From Escherichia coli (GTDB lineage: Bacteria; Pseudomonadota; Gammaproteobacteria; Enterobacterales; Enterobacteriaceae): 15,366 nt of DNA. Location of the stretch: assembly GCF_003334315.1 (NCBI RefSeq), contig NZ_QOWR01000075.1; one strand, 5' to 3'. A program made the position numbers and the translations under genes. Positions 1 to 15,366 of the stretch are shown one piece after another (within the stretch, counting starts at the first letter, position 1; the number at the start of each line of letters is the position of its first letter). The notes beneath the pieces are model-generated. The model ran no database searches. It saw nothing but the letters and a program-made list of their open reading frames with translations, and was not told the DNA's origin.

Positions 1-105
1 ATTATATCGAATGTGATTACAATCGGTGGCGGCGGCACAGTTGGTGTGGCGGCCTCAGTCCGGAACAATTTGAAAACAAGAACCTCGCTTAGGCCTGTGT
101 CCATA

Positions 106-459
106 TTACGTGGGTAGGATCAGATCAGGAACAGCTTTAACAGTAGCTTCTTGTTGTGTCTTGGCTTCTTGTCTAGCTTCTTCTTGTGGAATATCTACCA
201 CTTGATAGACATTAGAACTTCCTGGTCGTGCATCTTTTATAATTAACCCCATTTCGAGCAATTTCTTAACCCTTTCCTCTGCTGCTCTTGGTGTTATGCC
301 AAAAACATCGCCTATCTTAGCGTAAGAGGGAAATGCACGATCAAACCCTTTCAGATAGCAGTAAAGATTTTTAGCACTATCTGTAAATTTATGCCCGTTT
401 ACTTGGCTTATTTTTAGAATCCACATAGGAACTTTTACAAATTGTTCTTCATTAATCAT
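106..459 (-). CDS. small winged-helix/HTH DNA-binding protein, 117 aa from ATG 459 (the ORF track shows a GTG-extended 125 aa form reaching 483)
   Basis: Open frame 106..483. The ATG at 457-459 is preceded by AAGGAG (467-472) 7 nt upstream, while the GTG at 483 has no SD. The pattern VPMWILK..AKNLYCYLKGF..FPSYAKIGDVFGITPRAAEERVKKLLEMGLI resembles the HTH_36 / initiator-type winged helix of phage and plasmid proteins (from memory, not searched). The tail is acidic and Q-rich. Confidence 0.6.
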   Translation of the reverse strand: MINEEQFVKVPMWILKISQVNGHKFTDSAKNLYCYLKGFDRAFPSYAKIGDVFGITPRAAEERVKKLLEMGLIIKDARPGSSNVYQVVDIPQEEARQEAKTQQEATVKAVPDLILPT

Positions 460-512
460 TAAAAATCTCCTTGATGTAATCACGCTCTATGGCGCTACTA
501 TGGTGATAAAAA

Positions 513-683
513 TCACTTGCTTTTATTTGAGAGTGTTTCAGCCTCTCTTTTCAACATATCAAGAATGTAATCTGTGACAGTGATACGTCTACTTCTGGCT
601 TCTTTAAATAACACCTGAAATACTTCATCAGGAATATGAAAGCAAGTGCGTGGTTGTCTTTTCTTTTCTGTAGTTTCGCTCAT
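513..683 (-). CDS. 56 aa ribbon-helix-helix-like (Arc/CopG/MetJ style) protein, MSETTEKKRQPRTCFHIPDEVFQVLFKEARSRRITVTDYILDMLKREAETLSNKSK
   Basis: Not in the ORF track because it is under 60 aa; I translated it by hand. ATG at 681-683, TGA at 513-515, AAGGAG at 690-695 (6 nt spacer). The basic N-terminus followed by beta-strand-like FHIPDEVF and then two helices is the RHH layout. It lies between two other same-strand genes with short gaps (19 nt to the upstream gene, 53 nt to the downstream one). Confidence 0.55.
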   Translation of the reverse strand: MSETTEKKRQPRTCFHIPDEVFQVLFKEARSRRITVTDYILDMLKREAETLSNKSK

Positions 684-702
684 AGTTTTCTCCTTCTATT
701 CT

Positions 703-891
703 TTACTCTGTTTCAGATTCTTTTTCATTTTTTCTTAATTCATCAATAATCTTGAGTGCTTCATTGAAGCAAGCTGCTCGCTCTGGATAACCTCGACTCC
801 TTGCCATATTACGATTCATTACTATTTGGTGGCGTGTAAGCTCACCTTTTTTAAATGCCGCGACAACGTGTTCCGATGTGAACCATTTCAT
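703..891 (-). CDS. 62 aa hypothetical protein, first gene of the three-gene operon
   Basis: ATG at 889-891 with AAGGAG at 898-903 (6 nt spacer); TAA at 703-705. I recognise no family. The C-terminus is helical and charged. Confidence 0.55.
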   Translation of the reverse strand: MKWFTSEHVVAAFKKGELTRHQIVMNRNMARSRGYPERAACFNEALKIIDELRKNEKESETE

Positions 892-1001
892 AAAAAACTC
901 CTTATTCAGTTAAAAGAAAAACACCTTGCAAGCCTGACGGCTTCAAAGTGCATTGATTTTGATTATTTAGAGAAGAATGTTTTTCTGTCCCTCTAATACC
1001 T

Positions 1002-1030
1002 ATTATTACATATAAAGAAACATTTGTCAA
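1002..1030 (-). promoter_or_regulatory. sigma70-like promoter for the 891->106 operon
   Basis: On the minus strand: TTGACA (1030..1025), 17 nt spacer, AATAAT (1007..1002). This predicts a leader of about 100 nt before the ATG at 891. Confidence 0.45.
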
Positions 1031-1122
1031 TACCTTTTCACAAAAAATCTGATCTTTTTCATGTACTTACATTTTTTCTTAGCAATTCGTGCTCTTCTGT
1101 GTAGTGCTATTCTTCCTTATTG

Positions 1123-1151
1123 TCTAAAACGCTCTAAAACGCGTTCTAACG
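1123..1151 (+). repeat. tandem 10-mer TCTAAAACGC x2 plus a degenerate third copy
   Basis: Perfect copies at 1123-1132 and 1133-1142, with a partial copy TCTAACG at 1145-1151. The related AAAACGCTCT recurs at 1287-1296. Confidence 0.6.
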
Positions 1152-1567
1152 AGGTTTTGATAAAAGCAATACATTCCCTTATGTAATGGCTGTTTAGCTC
1201 GCCAGAGGCTTATTTAAGGGGCTTATTTTGTATTTGTTAGGTATATGAAAAGGTGATGGTAGATATAAGATAGAGAGTCACTTTATAAAACGCTCTGTAA
1301 AGCCCTGTAGTGAGTTTATATATGTAGGCAATGCGTTTCCATTCCCTACCCTGCTTAATGCTGTTAGAGAAGCATTTAGACCCCTTATTTTTAATTACCT
1401 AAAGTATCCTCTATACATTCCTGTTATGAAACACCTCTGAATCCTTCATAAAACACATTATGACGCAAAGAACACTTTTCTAAGGTGATTCCCTTCCTGA
1501 ATGCTGTTTCTTGCGTCAAAGAGCTACACAGAGCTTATAAAGCTATTATTAATAATAAAGTAGACAA

Positions 1568-1620
1568 AGTAAGTAAGATAAGTAAGTAAGATAACTAAGA
1601 TAGATAAGATTAATAAGATC
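1568..1620 (+). repeat. TAAG/TAAGAT microsatellite-like tract
   Basis: Perfect 13 bp tandem AGTAAGTAAGATA at 1568-1580 and 1581-1593. TAAGAT hexamers start at 1574, 1587, 1596, 1605 and 1614 (spacing 13, 9, 9, 9 bp). Confidence 0.75.
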
Positions 1621-1629
1621 AGAATTCTC

Positions 1630-1661
1630 TTTCGGTGTCGCCTCTGGCTTTTCCACCGAAA
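1630..1661. other. 8 bp stem hairpin / dyad (TTTCGGTG ... CACCGAAA, 16 nt loop)
   Basis: Arms at 1630-1637 and 1654-1661 are perfectly complementary. There is no U-tract on either strand, so it is not called a terminator. Confidence 0.4.
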
Positions 1662-1663
1662 AC

Positions 1664-1828
1664 AATTACACAACTACAGAGAATAACGAGAGTTATTAAA
1701 TGTAGAAAGTGGAATTGTATTGAGGCTTAGTGAAATTACACGAGGAAAGCAGAGTGTAATTGAGCTTTAGCCGCTCTCTCTTCGAGTAATTACACAACTA
1801 CAGAGAATAACAGAGTTATTAAATGTAG
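1664..1828 (+). repeat. pair of 42/41 bp direct repeats (1664-1705 and 1788-1828) bracketing an AATTACAC/GTGTAATT inverted pair
   Basis: Both copies read AATTACACAACTACAGAGAATAAC(G)AGAGTTATTAAATGTAG and are identical except for a 1 nt indel. Each contains the dyad AATAAC-N3/4-GTTATT. Between them, AATTACAC (1734-1741) and GTGTAATT (1754-1761) form a perfect 8 bp inverted repeat. Confidence 0.9.
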
Positions 1829-1889
1829 GAGGGTAATTAAGAGTTAGAGAGAGTTAACACATAAGCAATCAGTATGATTGGTTAGGTGA

Positions 1890-2070
1890 TTACTCTTCTG
1901 CGCACAGCGCAATAGTATTTCTTCGTGGGCGTTACCGCCAACGATAGTTACACGAAGAAAGTAACGCTTTGCTTTCGGTGTGAGCGGAACGGGCCAGCCA
2001 CGAAGCCCAAAGGTAGCGGAGTAAGGCTGCTTGCCAGAGAGTGAAGCTAACGCCGGAAGGCAAAAGATCA
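1890..2070. ncRNA. candidate structured RNA (or gene relic): a GC-richer, hairpin-dense patch inside very AT-rich DNA
   Basis: Perfect 10 bp helix TTTCTTCGTG (1918-1927) / CACGAAGAAA (1951-1960), enclosing GGCG-TTAC-CGCC (1928-1939). An alternative pairing is GCGTTAC (1929-1935) with GTAACGC (1961-1967). Other hairpins: TGCGC-ACA-GCGCA (1899-1911), GGGC/GCCC (1991-1994/2005-2008) and TTGCC/GGCAA (2031-2035/2059-2063). The overlapping 75 aa minus-strand ORF has no SD. Strand is undetermined. Confidence 0.3.
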
Positions 2071-2128
2071 TATAAATAAATATATAATATTATAATTTAA
2101 TAAGTAATTTAATAAATGATCTAATAGG

Positions 2129-2262
2129 TAACAGAATTCTGTGGGGGTGTCTAACAGTTTTCTGTGGGGGTGTCTAACAGAATTCTGTTAGGGTGGGGTA
2201 ACAGAATTTTGTTAGGGTAAAAATCTCTTTAAAAGTTAAGATTAACAGAATTCTGTGGGGGG
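2129..2262 (+). repeat. array of 5 dyad sites TAACAG-N4-CTGT(TA), each followed by a G-run
   Basis: Copies at 2129-2147, 2152-2170, 2175-2198, 2199-2218 and 2243-2262 (start spacing 23, 23, 24, 44 bp). The core ACAGAATTCTGT is a perfect 12 bp palindrome, and the copy at 2175 is a perfect 16 bp palindrome, TAACAGAATTCTGTTA. Confidence 0.9.
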
Positions 2263-2325
2263 TAGCTCACAGTGACCTACCCCCTAGTTCACTATGACCT
2301 ACCCCCCTAGGTCACAGTGACCTAT
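2263..2325 (+). repeat. iteron triplet A (22, 23, 18 bp units: TAGCTCACAGTGACCTACCCCC / TAGTTCACTATGACCTACCCCCC / TAGGTCACAGTGACCTAT)
   Basis: Head-to-tail direct repeats at 2263-2284, 2285-2307 and 2308-2325. The preceding G-run and the first unit form the inverted repeat GGGGGTAG ... CTACCCCC. Confidence 0.9.
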
Positions 2326-2383
2326 ATAGTATAAAGAATATTATTTATATTATTTAATTATAGTATTTAATTATAGTATTGGT
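2326..2383. repeat. extremely AT-rich spacer with a perfect 13 bp tandem TATTTAATTATAG x2 (2351-2363, 2364-2376); DUE-like
   Basis: Read directly from the sequence. It is flanked by the iteron and dyad arrays. A second AT-rich tract (2072-2128) carries the 11-mer TAATTTAATAA twice (2093-2103, 2105-2115). Confidence 0.7.
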
Positions 2384-2483
2384 GGAACTCATTTCCTAGG
2401 TAGGTAGGAACTAATTTCCTAAGTAGGTAGGAAACCACTTCCTAGGTTACTTCCTAAATAGATCGGAAATCATTTCCTAGGTG
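2384..2483 (+). repeat. array of 4 dyad sites GGAA-N5-TTCC followed by TAGGT/TAAGT
   Basis: Sites at 2384-2396, 2407-2419, 2430-2442 and 2465-2477 (start spacing 23, 23, 35 bp). There is a lone TTCCTA half-site at 2451-2456. Confidence 0.9.
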
Positions 2484-2501
2484 TTATTTATACTTATCGG
2501 G

Positions 2502-2556
2502 TATCAGTTTTGATAGGGGTATCAGACTTGATAGGGGTAACAGAATTCTGTGGGGG
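2502..2556 (+). repeat. array of 3 dyad-plus-GGGG units (TATCAGTTTTGATAGGGG, TATCAGACTTGATAGGGG, TAACAGAATTCTGTGGGGG)
   Basis: Units at 2502-2519, 2520-2537 and 2538-2556, with an 18 bp period. The TATCA..TGATA arms differ from the TAACAG..CTGTTA arms by symmetric (compensatory) changes in both half-sites. Confidence 0.9.
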
Positions 2557-2619
2557 TAGTTCACTATGACCTACCCCTAGTTCACTGTGAGCTACCCCTA
2601 GTTCACTGTGAGCTACCGT
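2557..2619 (+). repeat. iteron triplet B (3 x 21 bp TAGTTCAC(T/A)(G/A)TGA(G/C)CTACCCC)
   Basis: Units at 2557-2577, 2578-2598 and 2599-2619. They have the same orientation and family as 2263-2325. The module [TAACAGAATTCTGT + G-run + 3 iterons] is therefore duplicated (2243-2325 and 2538-2619). Confidence 0.9.
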
Positions 2620-2711
2620 TACATCCAATCATCTGTCGATGTAACATATCGTTACTACCAACTTTCTTACAAAGAGCATTTCAGATAGCTGAATGTAACC
2701 TCTCGTTACAT
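2618..2711. repeat. four GTTACAT heptamers arranged as two dyads
   Basis: GTTACATC (2618-2625) / GATGTAAC (2638-2645) with a 12 bp spacer. ATGTAAC (2693-2699) / GTTACAT (2705-2711) with a 5 bp spacer. There is an extra CGTTAC at 2650-2655. Confidence 0.8.
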
Positions 2712-2732
2712 CCATTTGTCACATAGCACTCT

Positions 2733-3208
2733 GTGTAATGCCTTTCTATGTGTGTGCCATAATCCCCCTATATTCCCTGTGTAAATCATAGAATAATGCT
2801 CTCTATTCCCTGTGTAATTCCCTACTAAAAATCAATGAAAAAGTAGCTTAAAGTTGCAATTCTTACTTTCTTCACTTTTACATCACTTTCGCAAAGCCTT
2901 GTGTAATGCGGCTTACAGAGCACCATCAGAAATTGTTGGCTAAAAATTATTCTGCTTGTTTCTGAACGAGTTTTCTCGTTTGTGCAAATTTTAAAATTTA
3001 TTTTGTTTTTACAGCCTTATTTCGTGTAATGCGTGGCATAGCAAGCCCTTTTCTTGTGTTGTCAAGACATTTGGCAACGTTCAAACATCTGTTTAGAAAT
3101 GCCAAATTGTTGATCTAACAAATAAACCTGTATAAACAGAACACCATTTAATCTATTCCCCTGTGTATCCATTAGGCATACCAAATGAATACAGCTAAAT
3201 CGTGTAAT
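2733..3208 (+). repeat. field of GTGTAAT-containing motifs, including the perfect 14-mer TATTCCCTGTGTAA x2
   Basis: GTGTAATGC at 2733, 2901 and 3024; GTGTAAT at 3202. TATTCCCTGTGTAA at 2771-2784 and 2804-2817 (33 bp apart). Variant TATTCCCCTGTGTA at 3154-3167. Related ATTCCCTTATGTAAT near 1173-1187. CCCTGTGTA on the minus strand at 4604-4612. Confidence 0.8.
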
Positions 3209-3281
3209 ATTCCGTACCCATAAGGCTTGAAACAGACCAAATGAATACGGTATACTCATTTGCATTTAAGTAGTGCCAAAT
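3069..3281. promoter_or_regulatory. res-like recombinase-binding region (CCAAAT-containing half-sites) upstream of the serine recombinase gene
   Basis: CCAAATGAATAC at 3181-3192 and 3237-3248. An imperfect inverted partner GTATACTCATTTG lies at 3250-3262. TGCCAAAT is at 3100-3107 and 3274-3281, with its complement ATTTGGCA at 3069-3076. The arrangement resembles the multi-subsite res regions next to tnpR-type genes (established layout; the assignment here is inference). Confidence 0.4.
3227..3256 (+). promoter_or_regulatory. sigma70-like promoter of the recombinase gene, overlapped by the repeated half-sites
   Basis: TTGAAA (3227-3232), 18 nt spacer, TATACT (3251-3256). The CCAAATGAATAC repeat lies within the spacer, which suggests autoregulation. 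Confidence 0.45.
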
Positions 3282-3301
3282 CGACACATTAAGAGGATTT
3301 T

Positions 3302-3841
3302 ATGAGCAATATCGGTTATAAGCGTGTGAGCACTGTAGATCAGAACACTGATCGCCAGCTTGCAGGAGTAACTCTCGATAAAGTCTTTGAAGATAAGCTG
3401 TCTGGTAAAGACACTAACCGCCCAGGCTTACAAGCGTGTTTAGCCTATCTGAGAGAAGGCGACACCTTACACGTGCACTCTCTCGACCGTTTAGGACGTA
3501 ACACCTTAGACATCCTTGCTTTAGTTGAACAACTTAATAATCGAGGTGTAATTGTTCGATTTCACAAAGAAGGAATCATTGCAGACATTACAAGCGCGAT
3601 GGGAAAGATGATGCTTACGATGTTGTCGGCAGTTGCAACGTGTGAACGTGAACTGATGTTAGAACGTAAACGAGAAGCGCAAGCCGTCAATCCTACAAAA
3701 CGTGGTAATGGAAAAGCAGTGGATCGAGAAGGTATAAAGAAAGCCCTTTCTGATGGCCTGTCAGTGCGTAAAACCGCCGAGAGCTTTAATGTTGCTCCTT
3801 CAACGGTGCAACGTATCAAGAAGGAAGAAGAGGAGGCGTAA
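3302..3841 (+). CDS. small serine recombinase (resolvase/invertase family), 179 aa
   Basis: N-terminal GYKRVSTVDQNTDRQ carries the catalytic-serine motif (YxRVSTxxQ). DRLGRN and the SAVATCERE helix are present. C-terminal HTH: GLSVRKTAESFNVAPSTVQRIKK. RBS AAGAGGA at 3291-3297. Confidence 0.9.
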   Translation: MSNIGYKRVSTVDQNTDRQLAGVTLDKVFEDKLSGKDTNRPGLQACLAYLREGDTLHVHSLDRLGRNTLDILALVEQLNNRGVIVRFHKEGIIADITSAMGKMMLTMLSAVATCERELMLERKREAQAVNPTKRGNGKAVDREGIKKALSDGLSVRKTAESFNVAPSTVQRIKKEEEEA

Positions 3842-3849
3842 TGCCTCCT
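3831..3849 (+). terminator. hairpin at the recombinase stop codon (AGGAGGC-GTAAT-GCCTCCT)
   Basis: Perfect 7 bp stem overlapping the TAA, followed by TTGATATTTG, which is only a weak U-tract. Confidence 0.4.
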
Positions 3850-4058
3850 TGATATTTGAGAATTGTCGCTGCGTGGACCTGACGGCGCTGATCTTCTCGT
3901 TAAGCGATGATCACGTATGCGCCGATTTCAGAGAAAAAGACAGTAACTGAACTCACTATGAAGGCTAAACGTATCTTTACACTTGATGAAAACGTTCAAA
4001 AAACAACCTAACCCCAAAATTCAACAAATTGCAACACATTGTTTTTAAAAGAAAATTA

Positions 4059-4106
4059 AATCTACATCAAATATTGGTTGACGTAGATTGAGGTGAATAG
4101 TAGACT
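4059..4106 (+). promoter_or_regulatory. sigma70-like promoter with a flanking 7 bp inverted repeat, upstream of the 52 aa ORF
   Basis: TTGACG (4078-4083), 17 nt spacer, TAGACT (4101-4106). AATCTAC (4059-4065) / GTAGATT (4083-4089) brackets the -35. Confidence 0.4.
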
Positions 4107-4182
4107 ATTAGGGTAAATTACCACCCTTGTAACATCATTTAATGCATGTTCTAATCTTCCTATCGTAAAACCGGAGGAAGTT

Positions 4183-4341
4183 ATGCATTTACTTTCAAAA
4201 CATCTTCACACTATTCACTTTCTCGTTATTGATGTATTCGTTGTGGCTATTAGTTACCGCATTTGCATCGCTTCCAGTGAAGAGATGGACGCTGTTGCAA
4301 TTATTGCTCAAGCAATGGCGATATTAACTAAACGACTTTAA
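4183..4341 (+). CDS. 52 aa hydrophobic mini-protein, MHLLSKHLHTIHFLVIDVFVVAISYRICIASSEEMDAVAIIAQAMAILTKRL
   Basis: Translated by hand (below the track cut-off). GGAGG at 4173-4177, 5 nt before the ATG at 4183; TAA at 4339-4341. It has a promoter upstream and a hairpin downstream. The hydrophobic core suggests a membrane peptide. Confidence 0.4.
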   Translation: MHLLSKHLHTIHFLVIDVFVVAISYRICIASSEEMDAVAIIAQAMAILTKRL

Positions 4342-4354
4342 TAATTTCACTATC

Positions 4355-4398
4355 AGGCGCATAAACACATCTTTGATCGCTGGATGTGTTATGCGCCT
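4355..4398. terminator. long hairpin between the convergent mini-ORFs (16 bp stem with one bulge, 11 nt loop)
   Basis: AGGCGCATAAACACATC (4355-4371) pairs with GATGTGTTATGCGCCT (4383-4398). There is no clear U-tract on either strand, so the terminator role is inferred only from its position between the two stop codons (4341 and 4408). Confidence 0.45.
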
Positions 4399-4407
4399 AC
4401 TGGTGAT

Positions 4408-4560
4408 TCAATCCTTAAGCCATTTCAACTCACTAAGGAGTTTTCTTTCTTCGTTCTCTCGTTGCTTTCGCTCTAGCCAGGCTTTTCCCTCTGGCGTAGA
4501 CAGGAACTTACGAGCGTGAATCTTGCGGTTATTACGTTTTATAGCTGCAATGTTTTTCAT
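4408..4560 (-). CDS. 50 aa basic, coiled-coil-like mini-protein, MKNIAAIKRNNRKIHARKFLSTPEGKAWLERKQRENEERKLLSELKWLKD
   Basis: Translated by hand. ATG at 4558-4560, AGAGG at 4568-4572 (7 nt spacer), TGA at 4408-4410. A CCCTGTGTA motif lies about 45 nt upstream, on the same strand. Confidence 0.4.
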   Translation of the reverse strand: MKNIAAIKRNNRKIHARKFLSTPEGKAWLERKQRENEERKLLSELKWLKD

Positions 4561-4744
4561 CGTGTTGCCTCTGTATTCATATGAAAATTAACAAGTTACA
4601 TACTACACAGGGAGACTACGCATAAAACACAATACAAGTAAAGATACATTTTCAAGACAATAGGAGCCATAAAGCGCCTTTGATGGTTATACCAAAAAAT
4701 AAGCGCCGTAGGCGTATCCACTAAAAAGGGCTTTTTCACAAAAG

Positions 4745-5110
4745 CTATGAAGTCTTAGCAGTTCTTCTCTTATCAGGCACCCGTTGTACTCCGGTGGACG
4801 AAACCGTGCTAGAGCTTGATTCTTTCCCGATCAAGTTAGGTTTTGAAGAGGTGGGCTTTAATCCACTATTGCACTTAAAACTCTTCCCATCATTTAGCCT
4901 GTTTATCCTCTGCAACGTCTCACGACGTGTAGCATCATTGGACACCGCGCCAGGTGTGGAACATCTTGCTAAGAGTTTTGGTAGAAGGTTTAGAGACGGT
5001 GGCACGTCTTCCAGCTTCAAAGGAACTTGTTACGAGGTTGAGCCTGGGAACTACTCGCCCATACGTGTTACACTACCAAAGCCCATAACAACGTATAGGC
5101 GTTTGTAAGT
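4745..5110. ncRNA. candidate structured RNA or decayed gene adjacent to the thrW 3' end
   Basis: GC is close to the core genome, unlike its neighbours. Both strands carry long overlapping open frames (4745..5020 minus, 4794..5108 plus) with non-ATG starts and no SD. Many local hairpins: 4813-4837, GAAGAG/CTCTTC 4845-4886 enclosing GTGG/CCAC, ACGTC-TCAC-GACGT 4915-4928, ACACC/GGTGT 4942-4957, AGACG/CGTCT 4994-5009. On the minus strand, a short GC stem plus T6 at about 4695-4725 could terminate a leftward transcript. Confidence 0.3.
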
Positions 5111-5166
5111 GATAACAGAAGATACAATTTCTTAGAGAAGTTAAGCTAAGTTATTGATTTTCTTGA

Positions 5167-5242
5167 TGGTGCCGATAATAGGAGTCGAACCTACGACCTT
5201 CGCATTACGAATGCGCTGCTCTACCAACTGAGCTATATCGGC
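5167..5242 (-). tRNA. thrW: tRNA-Thr (anticodon CGU)
   Basis: The reverse complement reads GCCGATATAGCTCAGTTGGTAGAGCAGCGCATTCGTAATGCGAAGGTCGTAGGTTCGACTCCTATTATCGGCACCA. It is 76 nt with an encoded CCA, a CGT anticodon in the loop and a GGTTCGA T-arm. Confidence 0.97.
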
Positions 5243-5287
5243 CCTGAAAGGACATGTTCACGAACGTGAATCACGGTGGACAAGGTT

Positions 5288-5351
5288 AAAACTAACCGGG
5301 CGATGCGTCAATGGCCTTGTGAATCAAATGGCTACTTTTGCATCACCCGGT
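5288..5351 (-). terminator. long-loop hairpin plus T-run downstream of proA, overlapping the likely thrW promoter region
   Basis: ACCGGGCGATGC (5295-5306) pairs with GCATCACCCGGT (5340-5351), with one G-U. On the minus strand it is followed by TAGTTTTAA. Confidence 0.35.
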
Positions 5352-14913: not shown

Positions 14914-15366
14914 GGTAATGACTCCAACTTATTGATAGTGTTTTATGTTCAGATAATGCCCGATGACTTTGTCATGCAGCTCCACCGATTTTGAGAACGA
15001 CAGCGACTTCCGTCCCAGCCGTGCCAGGTGCTGCCTCAGATTCAGGTTATGCCGCTCAATTCGCTGCGTATATCGCTTGCTGATTACGTGCAGCTTTCCC
15101 TTCAGGCGGGATTCATACAGCGGCCAGCCATCCGTCATCCATATCACCACGTCAAAGGGTGACAGCAGGCTCATAAGACGCCCCAGCGTCGCCATAGTGC
15201 GTTCACCGAATACGTGCGCAACAACCGTCTTCCGGAGACTGTCATACGCGTAAAACAGCCAGCGCTGGCGCGATTTAGCCCCGACATAGCCCCACTGTTC
15301 GTCCATTTCCGCGCAGACGATGACGTCACTGCCCGGCTGTATGCGCGAGGTTACCGACTGCGGCCT
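14914..15366 (-). mobile_element. IS1 (right-end portion; the element continues beyond the window)
   Basis: It starts with the IS1 terminal inverted repeat GGTAATGACTCCAACTTATTGAT (14914-14936). The following sequence and the encoded InsB match IS1 from memory. Confidence 0.95.
14929..15366 (-). CDS. insB: IS1 transposase InsB reading frame (5' partial at the window edge)
   Basis: ..[41 protein letters not shown]...LNIKHYQ*. The frame is open up to position 15366, and the track lists only the part from the internal Met (15306). Confidence 0.93.

What the first reader, a model, noticed from the sequence alone, without database searches (positions are those of the whole stretch)
2072..2622. 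Origin-like architecture (duplicated dyad+iteron modules flanking AT-rich 13-mers) with no initiator gene in view
The module [TAACAGAATTCTGT + G-run + three head-to-tail 21-23 bp iterons] occurs twice in direct orientation (2243-2325 and 2538-2619). The two copies flank an almost pure A/T segment containing a perfect 13 bp tandem (2351-2376). A second AT tract with an 11-mer tandem sits at 2072-2128.

Iteron clusters at helical-repeat spacing flanking an AT-rich unwinding element is the established layout of iteron plasmid origins and of SaPI/PICI-type satellite origins. Normally the Rep, or primase-helicase, gene lies directly beside the iterons. Here the nearest candidates are only a 117 aa winged-helix protein 1.7 kb away and whatever lies beyond the left edge.

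This suggests either a very small initiator or a Rep-less origin replicated in trans by a helper phage or plasmid. In the second case the element could act as a hitchhiking replicon, or as an initiator-titrating decoy.
Basis: inference. Interest (0 to 1): 0.8.

Follow-up and report, generated by a model that had tools for sequence, protein, structure and literature searches.

The report
Satellite replication origin with stacked iterons
This stretch is most likely the replication origin of a small, undescribed phage-satellite-like island in E. coli, and it carries binding-site arrays for five variants of the island's own initiator protein, four of which have been copied into DNA-cutting enzymes of large virulent phages, the mark of a phage-satellite arms race.

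Summary
The repeats are real and far above chance. Window 2129-2710 holds five families of dyad-symmetric iterons (A, T, G, Y, R) and two AT-rich tracts.

The "117-aa winged-helix protein" is the N-terminal DNA-binding half of a 217-aa lambda-O-like initiator, cut off by an IS3 insertion at window 123. In 38 related islands the initiator's N-domain comes in five types. In every island the array beside the first AT tract is the matching family: A=TAACAGAATTCTGT, B=TAGnTCACnnTGAnCTA, C=GGAAnnCAyTTCC, D=GGTATCAnnnnTGATAGG, E=TGTAAC-N5-GTTAC.

The window's likely working origin is therefore 2066-2221 (AT tract plus four A sites).

Virulent Stephanstirmvirinae phages encode chimeric proteins: initiator domain A, D or E, then domain C, then a T5orf172/MUG113-like nuclease domain. 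This parallels ICP1 Odn against Vibrio PLE. The island's tape-measure and tail-tube-initiator genes are closest to the same phages.

Verdict: a known kind of origin in a new variant, inside an apparently undescribed satellite family. This copy is defective in cis. Replication, binding and cleavage are all inferred, not shown.

The parts
1..123 (.). Terminal 123 bp of an IS3 copy. Its insertion (or an IS3-mediated deletion) removed the C-terminal half of the initiator gene and everything to its left.
   Evidence: 99.2% identical to the IS3 end in L001 at 15001-15123. Homology to the island starts at window 123-125.
124..459 (-). Truncated initiator gene: the type A N-terminal winged-helix DNA-binding domain, about 112 codons. 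The open frame runs on into IS3 to a stop at 106-108.
   Evidence: 113 of 117 residues identical to the 217-aa protein of L002. Full-length relatives hit phrog_270 (replication initiation protein, 7.6e-11), O-like PHROGs and Pfam HTH_36.
513..891 (-). Two small conserved ORFs (56 aa at 513-683, 62 aa at 703-891) between the promoter and the initiator gene. They are probably part of the initiator operon; their function is unknown.
   Evidence: Present in the same place in nearly all related islands. No significant family hit.
1002..1030 (-). Sigma-70-like promoter (TTGACA, 17-nt spacer, AATAAT, with TG) pointing towards the initiator operon.
   Evidence: 11 of 12 consensus matches, the best site in 1-5300. 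Consensus match only.
1840..2065 (+). Conserved GC-rich block that folds unusually well and abuts the origin. Its role is unknown.
   Evidence: RNA fold of the plus strand: -81 kcal/mol, z = -4.31. Nearly invariant among window-like islands. No Rfam family matched.
2066..2128 (.). AT tract 1 (89% A+T), the candidate DNA-unwinding element of the matching origin.
   Evidence: In all 38 islands an AT tract sits here, directly followed by the array that matches the initiator type.
2129..2214 (.). Four type A iterons (TAACAGAATTCTGT(TA) dyads; starts 2129, 2152, 2175, 2199; spacing 23, 23, 24 bp). This array matches the initiator type encoded in the window.
   Evidence: Arrays of 4-5 A sites occur only in the 10 islands whose initiator has the type A N-domain.
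2243..2324 (.). A fifth A site (2243-2256) plus three T iterons (TAGnTCACnnTGAnCTA at 2263, 2285, 2308).
   Evidence: T arrays of 2-5 copies follow the AT tract in all 9 type B islands.
2325..2380 (.). AT tract 2 (93% A+T) with a 13-mer tandem. It is the AT tract of a type C origin cassette.
   Evidence: The same tract, with 2-5 copies of the 13-mer, comes before the G array in type C islands L004 and L018.
2384..2477 (.). Four G iterons (GGAAnnCAyTTCC at 2384, 2407, 2430, 2465). The G family matches initiator type C.
   Evidence: One base different from the G array of type C island L018. G arrays follow the AT tract in all 5 type C islands.
2500..2535 (.). Two Y iterons (GGTATCAnnnnTGATAGG). 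The Y family matches initiator type D.
   Evidence: The motif scan scores three Y copies next to the AT tract in all 8 type D islands, and the sequences show one or two further degenerate copies.
2538..2615 (.). A sixth A site (2538-2551) plus three T iterons (2557, 2578, 2599; spacing 21 bp).
2616..2710 (.). R iterons (TGTAAC-N5-GTTAC at 2640-2655 and 2694-2709, plus a half-site at 2618-2626). The R family matches initiator type E.
   Evidence: The motif scan scores four R copies, and the sequence of L015 shows five, directly after the AT tract in all 6 type E islands.
3302..3841 (+). Small serine recombinase (resolvase/invertase type) on the right of the non-coding region. Present in some islands and absent in others.
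   Evidence: Pfam Resolvase 7.5e-34; phrog_125 DNA invertase 1.3e-54. Absent in L003, L005 and L010.
5167..5242 (-). tRNA-Thr (CGT), thrW, which marks the right-hand boundary of the island. Core genes proA, proB, phoE and onwards follow.

Best explanation
**What it is.** Window ~2066-2710 is the replication-origin region of a ~12.5-kb island inserted at thrW. Intact copies of this island family run, in order:
- tyrosine integrase
- tail-tube-initiator (Dit-like) gene
- tape-measure-like gene
- major capsid gene
- small ORFs
- a 217-aa initiator
- two small ORFs
- 1.7-2.9 kb of non-coding DNA
- a serine recombinase (in some copies)
- the tRNA

**The initiator.** It has three parts:
- a variable N-terminal winged-helix domain that reads the iterons;
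- an acidic linker that is probably disordered;
- a helical C-domain ending in ...DFDIPF or ...YDS(I/L)PF.

**How the origin would fire (inferred).**
1. Initiator dimers bind the four dyad-symmetric type A iterons at 2129-2214.
2. The adjoining AT tract (2066-2128) opens.
3. The C-domain, whose tip resembles the SSB C-terminal hexapeptide DDDIPF, recruits host or helper-phage replisome proteins.

**The rest of the region.** They were most likely left behind by recombination events that swapped the initiator N-domain together with a new array placed next to the AT tract.

**Why there are five specificities (inferred).** Virulent Stephanstirmvirinae phages carry chimeric nucleases built from copies of these same DNA-binding domains. 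Selection to escape those nucleases would drive the diversification.

**This copy.** IS3 has removed the initiator's C-terminal half and everything to its left in the window. The origin here can fire only if a related island supplies an initiator in trans.

**Shown versus inferred.**
- Shown: the sequence anatomy, the co-variation, and the homologies.
- Inferred: DNA binding, origin firing, replisome recruitment, nuclease targeting, and satellite behaviour.
For: **1. Co-variation.**
- 38 of 38 informative islands have, directly after the first AT tract, the iteron family that matches the initiator's N-domain type: A 10, B 9, C 5, D 8, E 6.
- The rule was worked out on 11 loci. It then held in the 15 informative IMG/VR loci and in 11 loci fetched through proteins P0053 and P0028.
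- The link holds when the same N-domain is joined to different C-domains and sits in different flanking backgrounds:
  - type A in L001-L003 versus L008/L026/L027;
  - type B in L005 versus L025;
  - type C in L004 versus L018 versus L011.

**2. Initiator homology.** All five N-types, only ~20-35% identical to one another, each hit PHROG replication-initiator and O-like families: phrog_270, 391, 428, 678, with E from 1e-6 to 1e-11. Pfam HTH_36 passes its threshold for type D.

**3. Origin layout.** Four or five dyad-symmetric iterons about two helical turns apart, next to an AT-rich tract. This is the lambda ori layout (established knowledge).

**4. The truncation.** The window ORF equals residues 1-~112 of the 217-aa protein and is followed by IS3.

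**5. Phage chimeric nucleases.**

| Phage | First domain (identity to island initiator) | Second domain |
|---|---|---|
| Mt1B1_P17, BI-EHEC | A (79-83%) | C (88-90%) |
| muut | D (99%) | C (89%) |
| inny | E (82%) | C (89%) |

- All four carry the same C-terminal nuclease domain, 94-100% identical among them.
- That domain hits phrog_681 'endonuclease' at 4.7e-19.
- Its relatives pass the Pfam thresholds for MUG113 and T5orf172.
- This matches the documented ICP1 Odn / PLE RepA_N case (PMC8263062).

**6. Link to the same phages.** The island's tape-measure-like and Dit-like proteins are closest (37-46% identity, E 1e-68 to 1e-89, adjacent and in the same order) to phi92 gp134/gp135 and other Stephanstirmvirinae.

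**7. The C-terminal tip.** All 27 loci screened have exactly one such ORF ending in [IL]PF. Among the 120 database homologues listed, all but the two phage chimeras and one variant end in Y(E/D/N)(D/N)FD(I/L)PF. The SSB-Ct hexapeptide is DDDIPF (PMC5872125).
Against: - No experiment shows replication, binding or cleavage.
- Databases name the protein only 'transcriptional regulator' or 'HTH domain-containing'. No NCBIfam family matches.
- Pfam Phage_rep_O is not reached, and HTH_36 is below threshold for type A.
- No helicase, primase or helicase-loader was recognised in the island.
- No DnaA box lies in the region.
- The AlphaFold model is low-confidence (mean pLDDT 53.6), so it adds no fold-level support.
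- Many of the 38 loci are close relatives, so the number of independent observations is much smaller, about 9 combinations of N-type and background.
- Dyad-symmetric sites are also typical of repressor operators. Type C islands carry an extra G site ~51 bp upstream of the initiator gene.
- The stacked G array would be a liability if phage nucleases with a type C domain cut it, which argues against any positive role for the stack.
Confidence: 0.75

Rival explanations
1. **Operator arrays of a master transcriptional regulator.** The 217-aa protein would be the island's repressor or activator, as it is annotated. The dyad arrays would be operators or a regulator sink that controls island induction, not an origin.
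For: - Sources name the protein 'transcriptional regulator' or even 'LexA family'.
- All sites are palindromes, as expected for dimeric repressors.
- Type C islands have a G site ~51 bp upstream of the gene's start, which suggests autoregulation.
- The co-variation and the phage nuclease domains prove only shared DNA specificity, not replication.
Against: - All five N-types hit replication-initiator PHROGs, not repressor families.
- The arrays lie 1.1-1.6 kb from the only good promoter for the operon and always abut an AT-rich tract.
- Four to five phased copies next to an AT tract is an origin layout.
- No peptidase S24 or other sensor domain was found.
- The conserved tip resembles the SSB tail, which recruits replication proteins.
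- The one characterised case of a phage nuclease that copies a satellite DNA-binding domain (Odn/PLE) targets an origin.
Confidence: 0.12
2. **The reader's reading.** A Rep-less origin that is replicated in trans by a helper phage's or plasmid's own initiator, or that acts as a decoy soaking up that initiator.
For: - In this window no full-length initiator remains.
- The region carries arrays for four specificities that the resident gene does not encode.
- Many genomes hold several related islands, up to 7 matching places per genome, so supply in trans is possible.
Against: - Every one of 27 related islands screened encodes its own initiator, and the 26 of them with origin sequence carry the matching array.
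- The loss here comes from an IS3 insertion, not from design.
- BLAST of 2060-2720 found no phage match. In plasmid records it found only fragments of this island in two E. coli records and three marginal Pseudomonas hits.
- The phage proteins that share the DNA-binding domains carry a nuclease domain, not an initiator C-domain.
- No iterons lie within 4 kb of those phage genes.
Confidence: 0.07
3. **Packaging or partition site.** The arrays would be recognised by a small-terminase-like or centromere-binding winged-helix protein, making them pac/cos or parS-like sites rather than an origin.
For: - Satellites need a packaging signal, and none has been identified in this island.
- Arrays of repeated sites bound by small winged-helix proteins occur at pac sites and plasmid centromeres (general knowledge).
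- 2.2 kb of non-coding DNA is more than an origin needs.
Against: - No terminase, ParA or ParB family hit for the protein or its neighbours.
- The PHROG hits are to initiators.
- The constant pairing with an AT tract has no role in these models.
- Packaging specificity should track the helper phage, not vary five ways within one island family.
Confidence: 0.04

Closest known systems
PLE replicon of Vibrio cholerae and the ICP1 origin-directed nuclease Odn (Barth et al. 2021, PMC8263062)
   Same: - The origin lies in a large non-coding region of a small integrated satellite.
- The iterons are semi-palindromic.
[quoted passage not shown]
- N-domain and origin swaps have happened repeatedly.
- A virulent phage encodes a chimera of the satellite's DNA-binding domain and a T5orf172-type nuclease.
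   Different: - The host is E. coli and the phages are Stephanstirmvirinae.
- The DNA-binding fold family is HTH_36 / O-like, not RepA_N.
- There are five specificities instead of two.
- The phage nucleases carry two DNA-binding domains in tandem.
- Origin cassettes for foreign specificities are stacked side by side in one island.
- The island carries its own capsid, tape-measure and tail-tube-initiator homologues.
- Nothing has been tested experimentally.
Phage lambda ori and O protein
   Same: - Four dyad-symmetric iterons bound by dimers of an initiator whose N-terminal domain sets the specificity, next to an AT-rich tract (established knowledge).
- PHROG 'replication initiation O-like' hits.
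   Different: - Lambda ori lies inside the O gene. Here the origin is 1.6 kb upstream of the gene.
- Pfam Phage_rep_O is not reached.
- No P-like helicase loader was recognised.
- The C-terminus ends in an SSB-like tip.
SaPI/PICI origins
   Different: - PICI origins lie just 3' of a pri-rep gene that encodes a helicase, often with a primase.
- No such domains occur in this island.
- The 'two flanking sets' here are different cassettes, not the two halves of one origin.
Iteron plasmids (Rep_3 / RepA-pi-RepE type)
   Same: Directly repeated initiator sites next to an AT-rich unwinding element.
   Different: - The iterons here are palindromic.
- No Rep_3 or WH1-WH2 initiator was found.
- No DnaA boxes occur in the region.
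- Plasmid records gave only fragments of this island in two E. coli records and three marginal Pseudomonas hits.

Membership tests
Iteron-type origin with a lambda-O-like initiator | Three or more phased initiator-binding repeats next to an AT-rich unwinding tract | tested here: met
   Four A sites at 2129-2214 (spacing 23, 23, 24 bp) abut a 63-bp tract of 89% A+T. The same layout is found in 38 of 38 islands.
Iteron-type origin with a lambda-O-like initiator | The initiator's N-domain specificity matches the iterons | tested here: met
   Tested by co-variation only: five N-types map to five iteron families with no exception. Binding itself was not tested.
Iteron-type origin with a lambda-O-like initiator | The initiator belongs to Pfam Phage_rep_O | tested here: not met
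   Only HTH_36 is found: type D 32 bits against a cut-off of 25, type A 20 bits. Phage_rep_O scores 0.014 and only in the phage chimera. PHROG O-like families are hit at 1e-5 to 1e-10.
Iteron-type origin with a lambda-O-like initiator | The origin lies inside the initiator gene | tested here: not met
   The arrays begin 1.67 kb upstream of the initiator's start codon.
Iteron-type origin with a lambda-O-like initiator | Initiator-dependent replication from the origin | not testable with these tools
   This needs plasmid-maintenance or copy-number assays.
PLE-type satellite replicon targeted by a phage origin-directed nuclease | The N-terminal DNA-binding domain co-varies with a non-coding origin, and the C-domain is shared across types | tested here: met
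   At least three C-domain variants combine freely with the N-types.
PLE-type satellite replicon targeted by a phage origin-directed nuclease | A phage chimera of the satellite's DNA-binding domain with a T5orf172/GIY-YIG-type nuclease | tested here: met
   Met at the sequence level. Domains A, C, D and E are 79-99% identical to island initiators and are fused to a nuclease domain: phrog_681 4.7e-19, with MUG113 and T5orf172 weak in the phage protein itself but above threshold in relatives P0147 and P0159. Cleavage was not tested.
PLE-type satellite replicon targeted by a phage origin-directed nuclease | The initiator has a RepA_N domain | tested here: not met
   Pfam scans of types A, C and D report HTH_36 and no RepA_N.
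PLE-type satellite replicon targeted by a phage origin-directed nuclease | The island is induced, replicated and transduced during infection by the virulent helper phage | not testable with these tools
   Only indirect support: the tape-measure and Dit homologues are closest to Stephanstirmvirinae, and the nuclease occurs in the same subfamily.
SaPI/PICI origin | The origin lies directly 3' of a pri-rep gene that encodes a helicase or primase | tested here: not met
   No helicase or primase family appears in any island ORF. The origin lies upstream of a 217-aa winged-helix protein.
Capsid-forming PICI (cf-PICI) | Encodes a full capsid and packaging set (portal, protease, terminase, connectors) | tested here: not met
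   Only a major capsid protein (Phage_cap_E, 7e-14) was recognised, together with tape-measure-like and Dit-like tail genes.
Iteron plasmid origin | A Rep_3 or WH1-WH2 initiator, and DnaA boxes | tested here: not met
   No such Pfam hit. No DnaA box in 1000-3300, and window-wide 4 hits against 3.7 expected.

The most novel reading that the evidence does not exclude
**The reading.** The origin region is a multi-specificity landing pad in a live arms race.
- E. coli would carry an undescribed family of satellites of virulent phi92-like and phAPEC8-like phages.
- The satellites' initiator-and-iteron modules would have diversified into at least five specificities under attack by phage nucleases that carry two copied initiator domains.

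**What would make it novel.** The stacked non-matching arrays, as in this window, would be functional rather than relics. They could act in one of two ways:
- as decoys that soak up or misdirect the phage nucleases;
- as sites that let co-resident sibling satellites replicate one another or interfere with one another.

**Probabilities.** The arms-race part alone I put at about 0.6. The functional-stack part, which is the probability given here, is much less likely.
Probability: 0.2. Interest if true: 0.85.

Novelty: new variant of a known kind. Interest (0 to 1): 0.7.

Why it matters
If this is right, three things follow.

1. **A second natural example of origin-directed phage nucleases, and the first in E. 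coli.** So far this is documented only for Vibrio PLE and phage ICP1.
   - It would have five interchangeable initiator/iteron specificities.
   - The phage nucleases would carry two DNA-binding domains.
   - That makes a tractable system for studying how DNA-binding specificity evolves under conflict.

2. **Relevance to phage therapy.** phi92-like and phAPEC8-like phages are candidates against pathogenic E. coli.
   - A chromosomal satellite matched in 729 of 5426 complete genomes could affect their efficacy.
   - It could also explain differences in host range.

3. **A possible new route to origin firing.** An initiator ending in an SSB-tail-like tip suggests a simple way to recruit replisome proteins without a dedicated helicase loader.

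For this window alone the result is modest. It holds a decayed island copy whose origin is orphaned by an IS3 insertion.

Tried and rejected
**Searches that found nothing useful**
- Rfam at permissive thresholds over 850-5300 found only the tRNA.
- A DnaA-box scan found none in the region.
- Megablast and blastn of the region against phages gave no match.
- Against plasmids there were only island fragments in two E. coli records and marginal Pseudomonas hits.
- The genome-contig scan with the capsid protein returned a single Escherichia locus, so no cross-genus comparison was possible.
- The PDB sequence search with the initiator gave nothing below E = 0.2.
- NCBIfam has no family for any initiator type or for the phage chimera.
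- The word-index search with the nuclease domain returned nothing, although chimeras are in that database.
- The island capsid protein has only ~24% identical relatives, in Pseudomonas myophages, so it does not identify a helper.
- Five literature searches found no description of this island family or of a satellite of Stephanstirmvirinae. A sixth retrieved the PLE/Odn precedent.

**Analyses that could not be completed**
- The AlphaFold model of the type A initiator has mean pLDDT 53.6, too low for a fold search, so none was run.
- A covariation test of the GC-rich block was not possible. Its sequences are either nearly identical or unalignable.

**Ideas rejected**
- An invertible-segment reading, prompted by the neighbouring invertase-like recombinase. 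Thirty-seven of 38 loci share one orientation, and the one inverted copy lies between two inverted IS3 copies.
- Membership of cf-PICI, P4-like or PICI families, because their hallmark genes are absent.
Full report
**Where the window lies.** The window is E. coli chromosome. From tRNA-Thr thrW (5167-5242, minus strand) rightwards it carries proA, proB, phoE, crl, frsA, gpt and pepD. To the left of thrW lies the remnant of an island. The first 123 bases are the end of an IS3 copy (99.2% identical).

**Island layout in intact relatives.** I used L002 from strain GPEC128-620, L003, L004 from O104:H4 2011C-3493, and L005. The island is about 12.5 kb and runs as follows:
- a tyrosine integrase;
- a Dit-like tail gene;
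- a 609-aa tape-measure-like gene;
- a major capsid gene (Pfam Phage_cap_E);
- several small ORFs;
- a 217-230-aa protein annotated 'transcriptional regulator';
- two small ORFs;
- 1.7-2.9 kb with no annotated gene;
- a small serine recombinase in some copies;
- the tRNA.

The finding lies inside the unannotated stretch. Megablast of 1030-3300 hits 729 of 5426 complete E. coli genomes, almost all on chromosomes. It hits no phage and essentially no plasmid.

**The observation.** The description is incomplete, though. The region 2129-2710 holds five families of dyad-symmetric repeats:

| Family | Motif | Positions in the window |
|---|---|---|
| A | TAACAGAATTCTGT(TA) | six sites, four of them a tandem array at 2129-2214 |
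| T | TAGnTCACnnTGAnCTA | three at 2263-2324, three at 2557-2615 |
| G | GGAAnnCAyTTCC | four at 2384-2477 |
| Y | GGTATCAnnnnTGATAGG | two at 2500-2535 |
| R | TGTAAC-N5-GTTAC | two at 2640-2710, plus a half-site |

There are two AT-rich tracts, at 2066-2128 and 2325-2380. No dinucleotide-preserving shuffle of the window reaches the observed count for any family.

**The 'missing' initiator.**
- The window ORF at 106-483, with its real start at 459, matches residues 1-117 of the 217-aa protein of L002 with 113 identities. It then runs into IS3.
- The full-length protein hits PHROG replication-initiator families: phrog_270 at 7.6e-11, plus several 'replication initiation O-like' families. It also hits Pfam HTH_36.
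- Across islands the protein is modular. It has a variable N-terminal winged-helix domain, an acidic linker, and a C-domain that ends in ...DFDIPF or ...YDS(I/L)PF.
- I found five N-domain types, about 20-35% identical to one another. Each one independently hits the same initiator PHROGs.

**Co-variation.** I worked out the rule on the window and 10 related loci. It then held in the 15 informative IMG/VR loci found with the capsid protein, and in 11 loci fetched through proteins P0053 and P0028. In all 38 informative islands the first array after the AT tract is the family predicted by the N-domain type:

| N-domain type | Starts with | Islands | Matching array (copies scored by the motif scan) |
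|---|---|---|---|
| A | MINEEQFVKVPMW | 10, including the window | A, 4-5 |
| B | MINQLTFTKHYD | 9 | T, 2-5 |
| C | MIKNIKTIAEAK | 5 | G, 3-4 |
| D | MIKHTKPFLGIDYD | 8 | Y, 3 (further degenerate copies visible in the sequences) |
| E | M(IL)MSKIKLIREKY | 6 | R, 4 (five visible in L015) |

The association survives when the same N-domain is joined to a different C-domain or sits in a different flanking background. Examples are type A in L008/L026/L027, type B in L025, and type C in L011 and L018. Many loci are close relatives, so the independent evidence is nearer to nine combinations than to 38. Even so, there is no exception.

I conclude that the N-domain reads the iterons. The unit made of an AT tract plus four or five matching dyads is the functional core, which is the lambda ori layout (established knowledge). 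For the window, that core is 2066-2221.

- The segment 2325-2551 (AT 13-mers, four G sites, two Y sites, one A site) differs by one base in its G array from the native origin of type C island L018.
- The T arrays are the iterons of type B.
- Type B island L005 has the same arrangement, with its own T array placed upstream of the same type C cassette.
- Other islands carry only the matching array plus single A, T or R sites at the right end: L013, L014, L020, L023, L008.

The window therefore carries a stack: a type A cassette, a T remnant, a type C cassette, and then Y, A, T and R sites. The simplest reading is that recombination replaced the initiator N-domain together with a new array next to the AT tract, and left the older cassettes to the right. 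Whether the stack does anything is unknown.

**Phage proteins with the same DNA-binding domains.** tblastn of the initiator against 50,697 phage records found matches only in four distinct virulent Stephanstirmvirinae phages. Each encodes one protein of 321-367 aa made of two initiator-type domains followed by a nuclease domain:

| Phage (genus) | First domain | Identity to island initiator | Second domain |
|---|---|---|---|
| Mt1B1_P17, BI-EHEC (Phapecoctavirus) | A | 83%, 79% | C (88-90%) |
| muut (Justusliebigvirus) | D | 99.2% over residues 1-123, linker included | C (89%) |
| inny (Justusliebigvirus) | E | 82% over 178 residues | C (89%) |

- The C-terminal domain is 94-100% identical among the four phages.
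- It hits phrog_681 'endonuclease' at 4.7e-19, and hits Pfam MUG113 and T5orf172 weakly.
- Its more distant relatives pass the Pfam thresholds for MUG113 and T5orf172. One relative, P0139, is a single HTH_36 domain fused to the nuclease.
- No A, T, G, Y or R site lies within 4 kb of the gene in the two Phapecoctavirus loci checked.
- A type B domain was not found in any phage record, only ~32% identical hits.

This is the architecture of ICP1 Odn. That protein copies the DNA-binding domain of the PLE initiator, carries a T5orf172 nuclease, and cuts the PLE origin at its iterons. In PLE, too, the initiator N-domain co-varies with a non-coding origin while the C-domain is shared (PMC8263062).

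**Which phages the island relates to.** The island's tape-measure-like and Dit-like proteins have their closest phage relatives in the same subfamily. These are phi92 gp134/gp135, ESCO8, phiWec188, Eryne, alia and others, at 37-46% identity with E from 1e-68 to 1e-89. The two genes are adjacent and in the same order. The capsid protein has only ~24% identical relatives, in Pseudomonas myophages. Together with the nuclease, this makes Stephanstirmvirinae the likely helper and antagonist. That step is inference.

**Mechanism: what is shown and what is inferred.**
- Shown: the anatomy; the truncation; the match between N-domain type and array; the homology to initiators; and the presence of the same domains in phage nuclease chimeras.
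- Inferred:
  1. Initiator dimers bind the four A dyads and open AT tract 1.
  2. The C-domain recruits replisome proteins.
  3. The phage chimeras cut the arrays.
  4. Escape from them drove the five-way diversification.
- On the C-terminal tip:
  - The tip Y(E/D)DFD(I/L)PF is conserved in every island copy.
  - It resembles the SSB C-terminal hexapeptide DDDIPF, which docks many replication proteins (PMC5872125).
  - The idea that it mimics SSB comes from my reading of the sequence and is untested.

In this window the origin is orphaned and could fire only with an initiator supplied in trans.

**Limits.**
- No recognised helicase, primase or loader is present in the island.
- No curated family claims the protein.
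- The structure model is poor.
- Dyad sites would also suit a repressor. The regulator reading therefore remains the main rival, at about 0.12.
It cannot be excluded for the stacked arrays.

**Novelty.** Five literature searches found no description of this island family or of a satellite of phi92-like or phAPEC8-like phages. A sixth retrieved the PLE/Odn paper used as the precedent. The library is limited to open-access papers and bioRxiv, so prior description elsewhere is possible. I rate the origin itself as a known kind, and rate three features as a new variant: the stacking of five specificities, the double-domain phage nucleases, and the SSB-like tip.

Noticed in passing
L028 4001-4987 (Mt1B1_P17, QNJ49226.1); L029 4001-4966 (BI-EHEC, unannotated); L031 1501-2499 (muut, QHR65951.1); L030 1516-2619 (inny, QHR69854.1): Virulent Stephanstirmvirinae phages encode chimeric proteins. 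Each has an island initiator domain (A, D or E), then domain C, then a T5orf172/MUG113-like nuclease domain. Only four distinct phages in the collection carry it. The gene is unannotated in BI-EHEC.
   Followed up: yes
C-terminus of the initiator in all related loci (for example L002 18783-18810); lost from the window copy: The initiator ends in Y(E/D)DFD(I/L)PF or YDS(I/L)PF. This closely resembles the SSB C-terminal hexapeptide DDDIPF, which docks PriA, the chi subunit, DnaG and other proteins.
   Followed up: partly
L002 12773-15349 (not present in the window): The island's tape-measure-like and Dit-like (tail-tube-initiator) genes are 37-46% identical to the adjacent gp134/gp135 pair of phi92-like and phAPEC8-like phages. 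This points to those phages as helpers.
   Followed up: partly
window 1840-2065: A conserved GC-rich block directly left of the origin folds far better than shuffled sequence: plus strand z = -4.31, minus strand z = -2.94. It has no Rfam match. It could be an RNA or a single-strand DNA structure linked to initiation.
   Followed up: partly
window 1664-1797 and 2731-3210: A GTGTAAT(T) motif is enriched on both sides of the origin, in opposite orientations (5 hits against 0.29 expected, and 7 against 0.71). The left cluster includes a 42-bp direct repeat at 1664-1705 and 1788-1828. The binding partner is unknown.
   Followed up: partly
window 3177-3256 and 3302-3841: The 16-bp direct repeat CA(T/G)ACCAAATGAATAC (3177-3192 and 3233-3248) brackets a promoter-like site just upstream of a 179-aa serine recombinase (phrog_125 DNA invertase, 1.3e-54). 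These may be recombinase or res-type sites. The gene is absent from several sister islands.
   Followed up: no
L004, L009, L011, L018, L024: about 51 bp upstream of the initiator's start codon: Type C islands carry one extra G iteron close to the initiator gene's start, which suggests autoregulation. No equivalent site was seen for the other types.
   Followed up: no
L007 1960-7194: In strain HCP4S3_I4 the origin segment is inverted relative to the initiator gene. It lies between two oppositely oriented IS3 copies. IS3 therefore repeatedly disrupts this non-coding region, as it also does in L001 and in the window.
   Followed up: partly
L008 (tRNA-Leu next to ahr/idnK); L011 (thiM/thiD region beside a TPP riboswitch): Related islands occupy other chromosomal sites besides thrW, and single genomes carry up to 7 matching places. 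L011 looks like a remnant placed next to a different integrase.
   Followed up: no
window 513-683 (minus strand): By eye, the 56-aa ORF upstream of the initiator gene looks like a ribbon-helix-helix (CopG/Arc-like) protein. No family search confirmed this.
   Followed up: no
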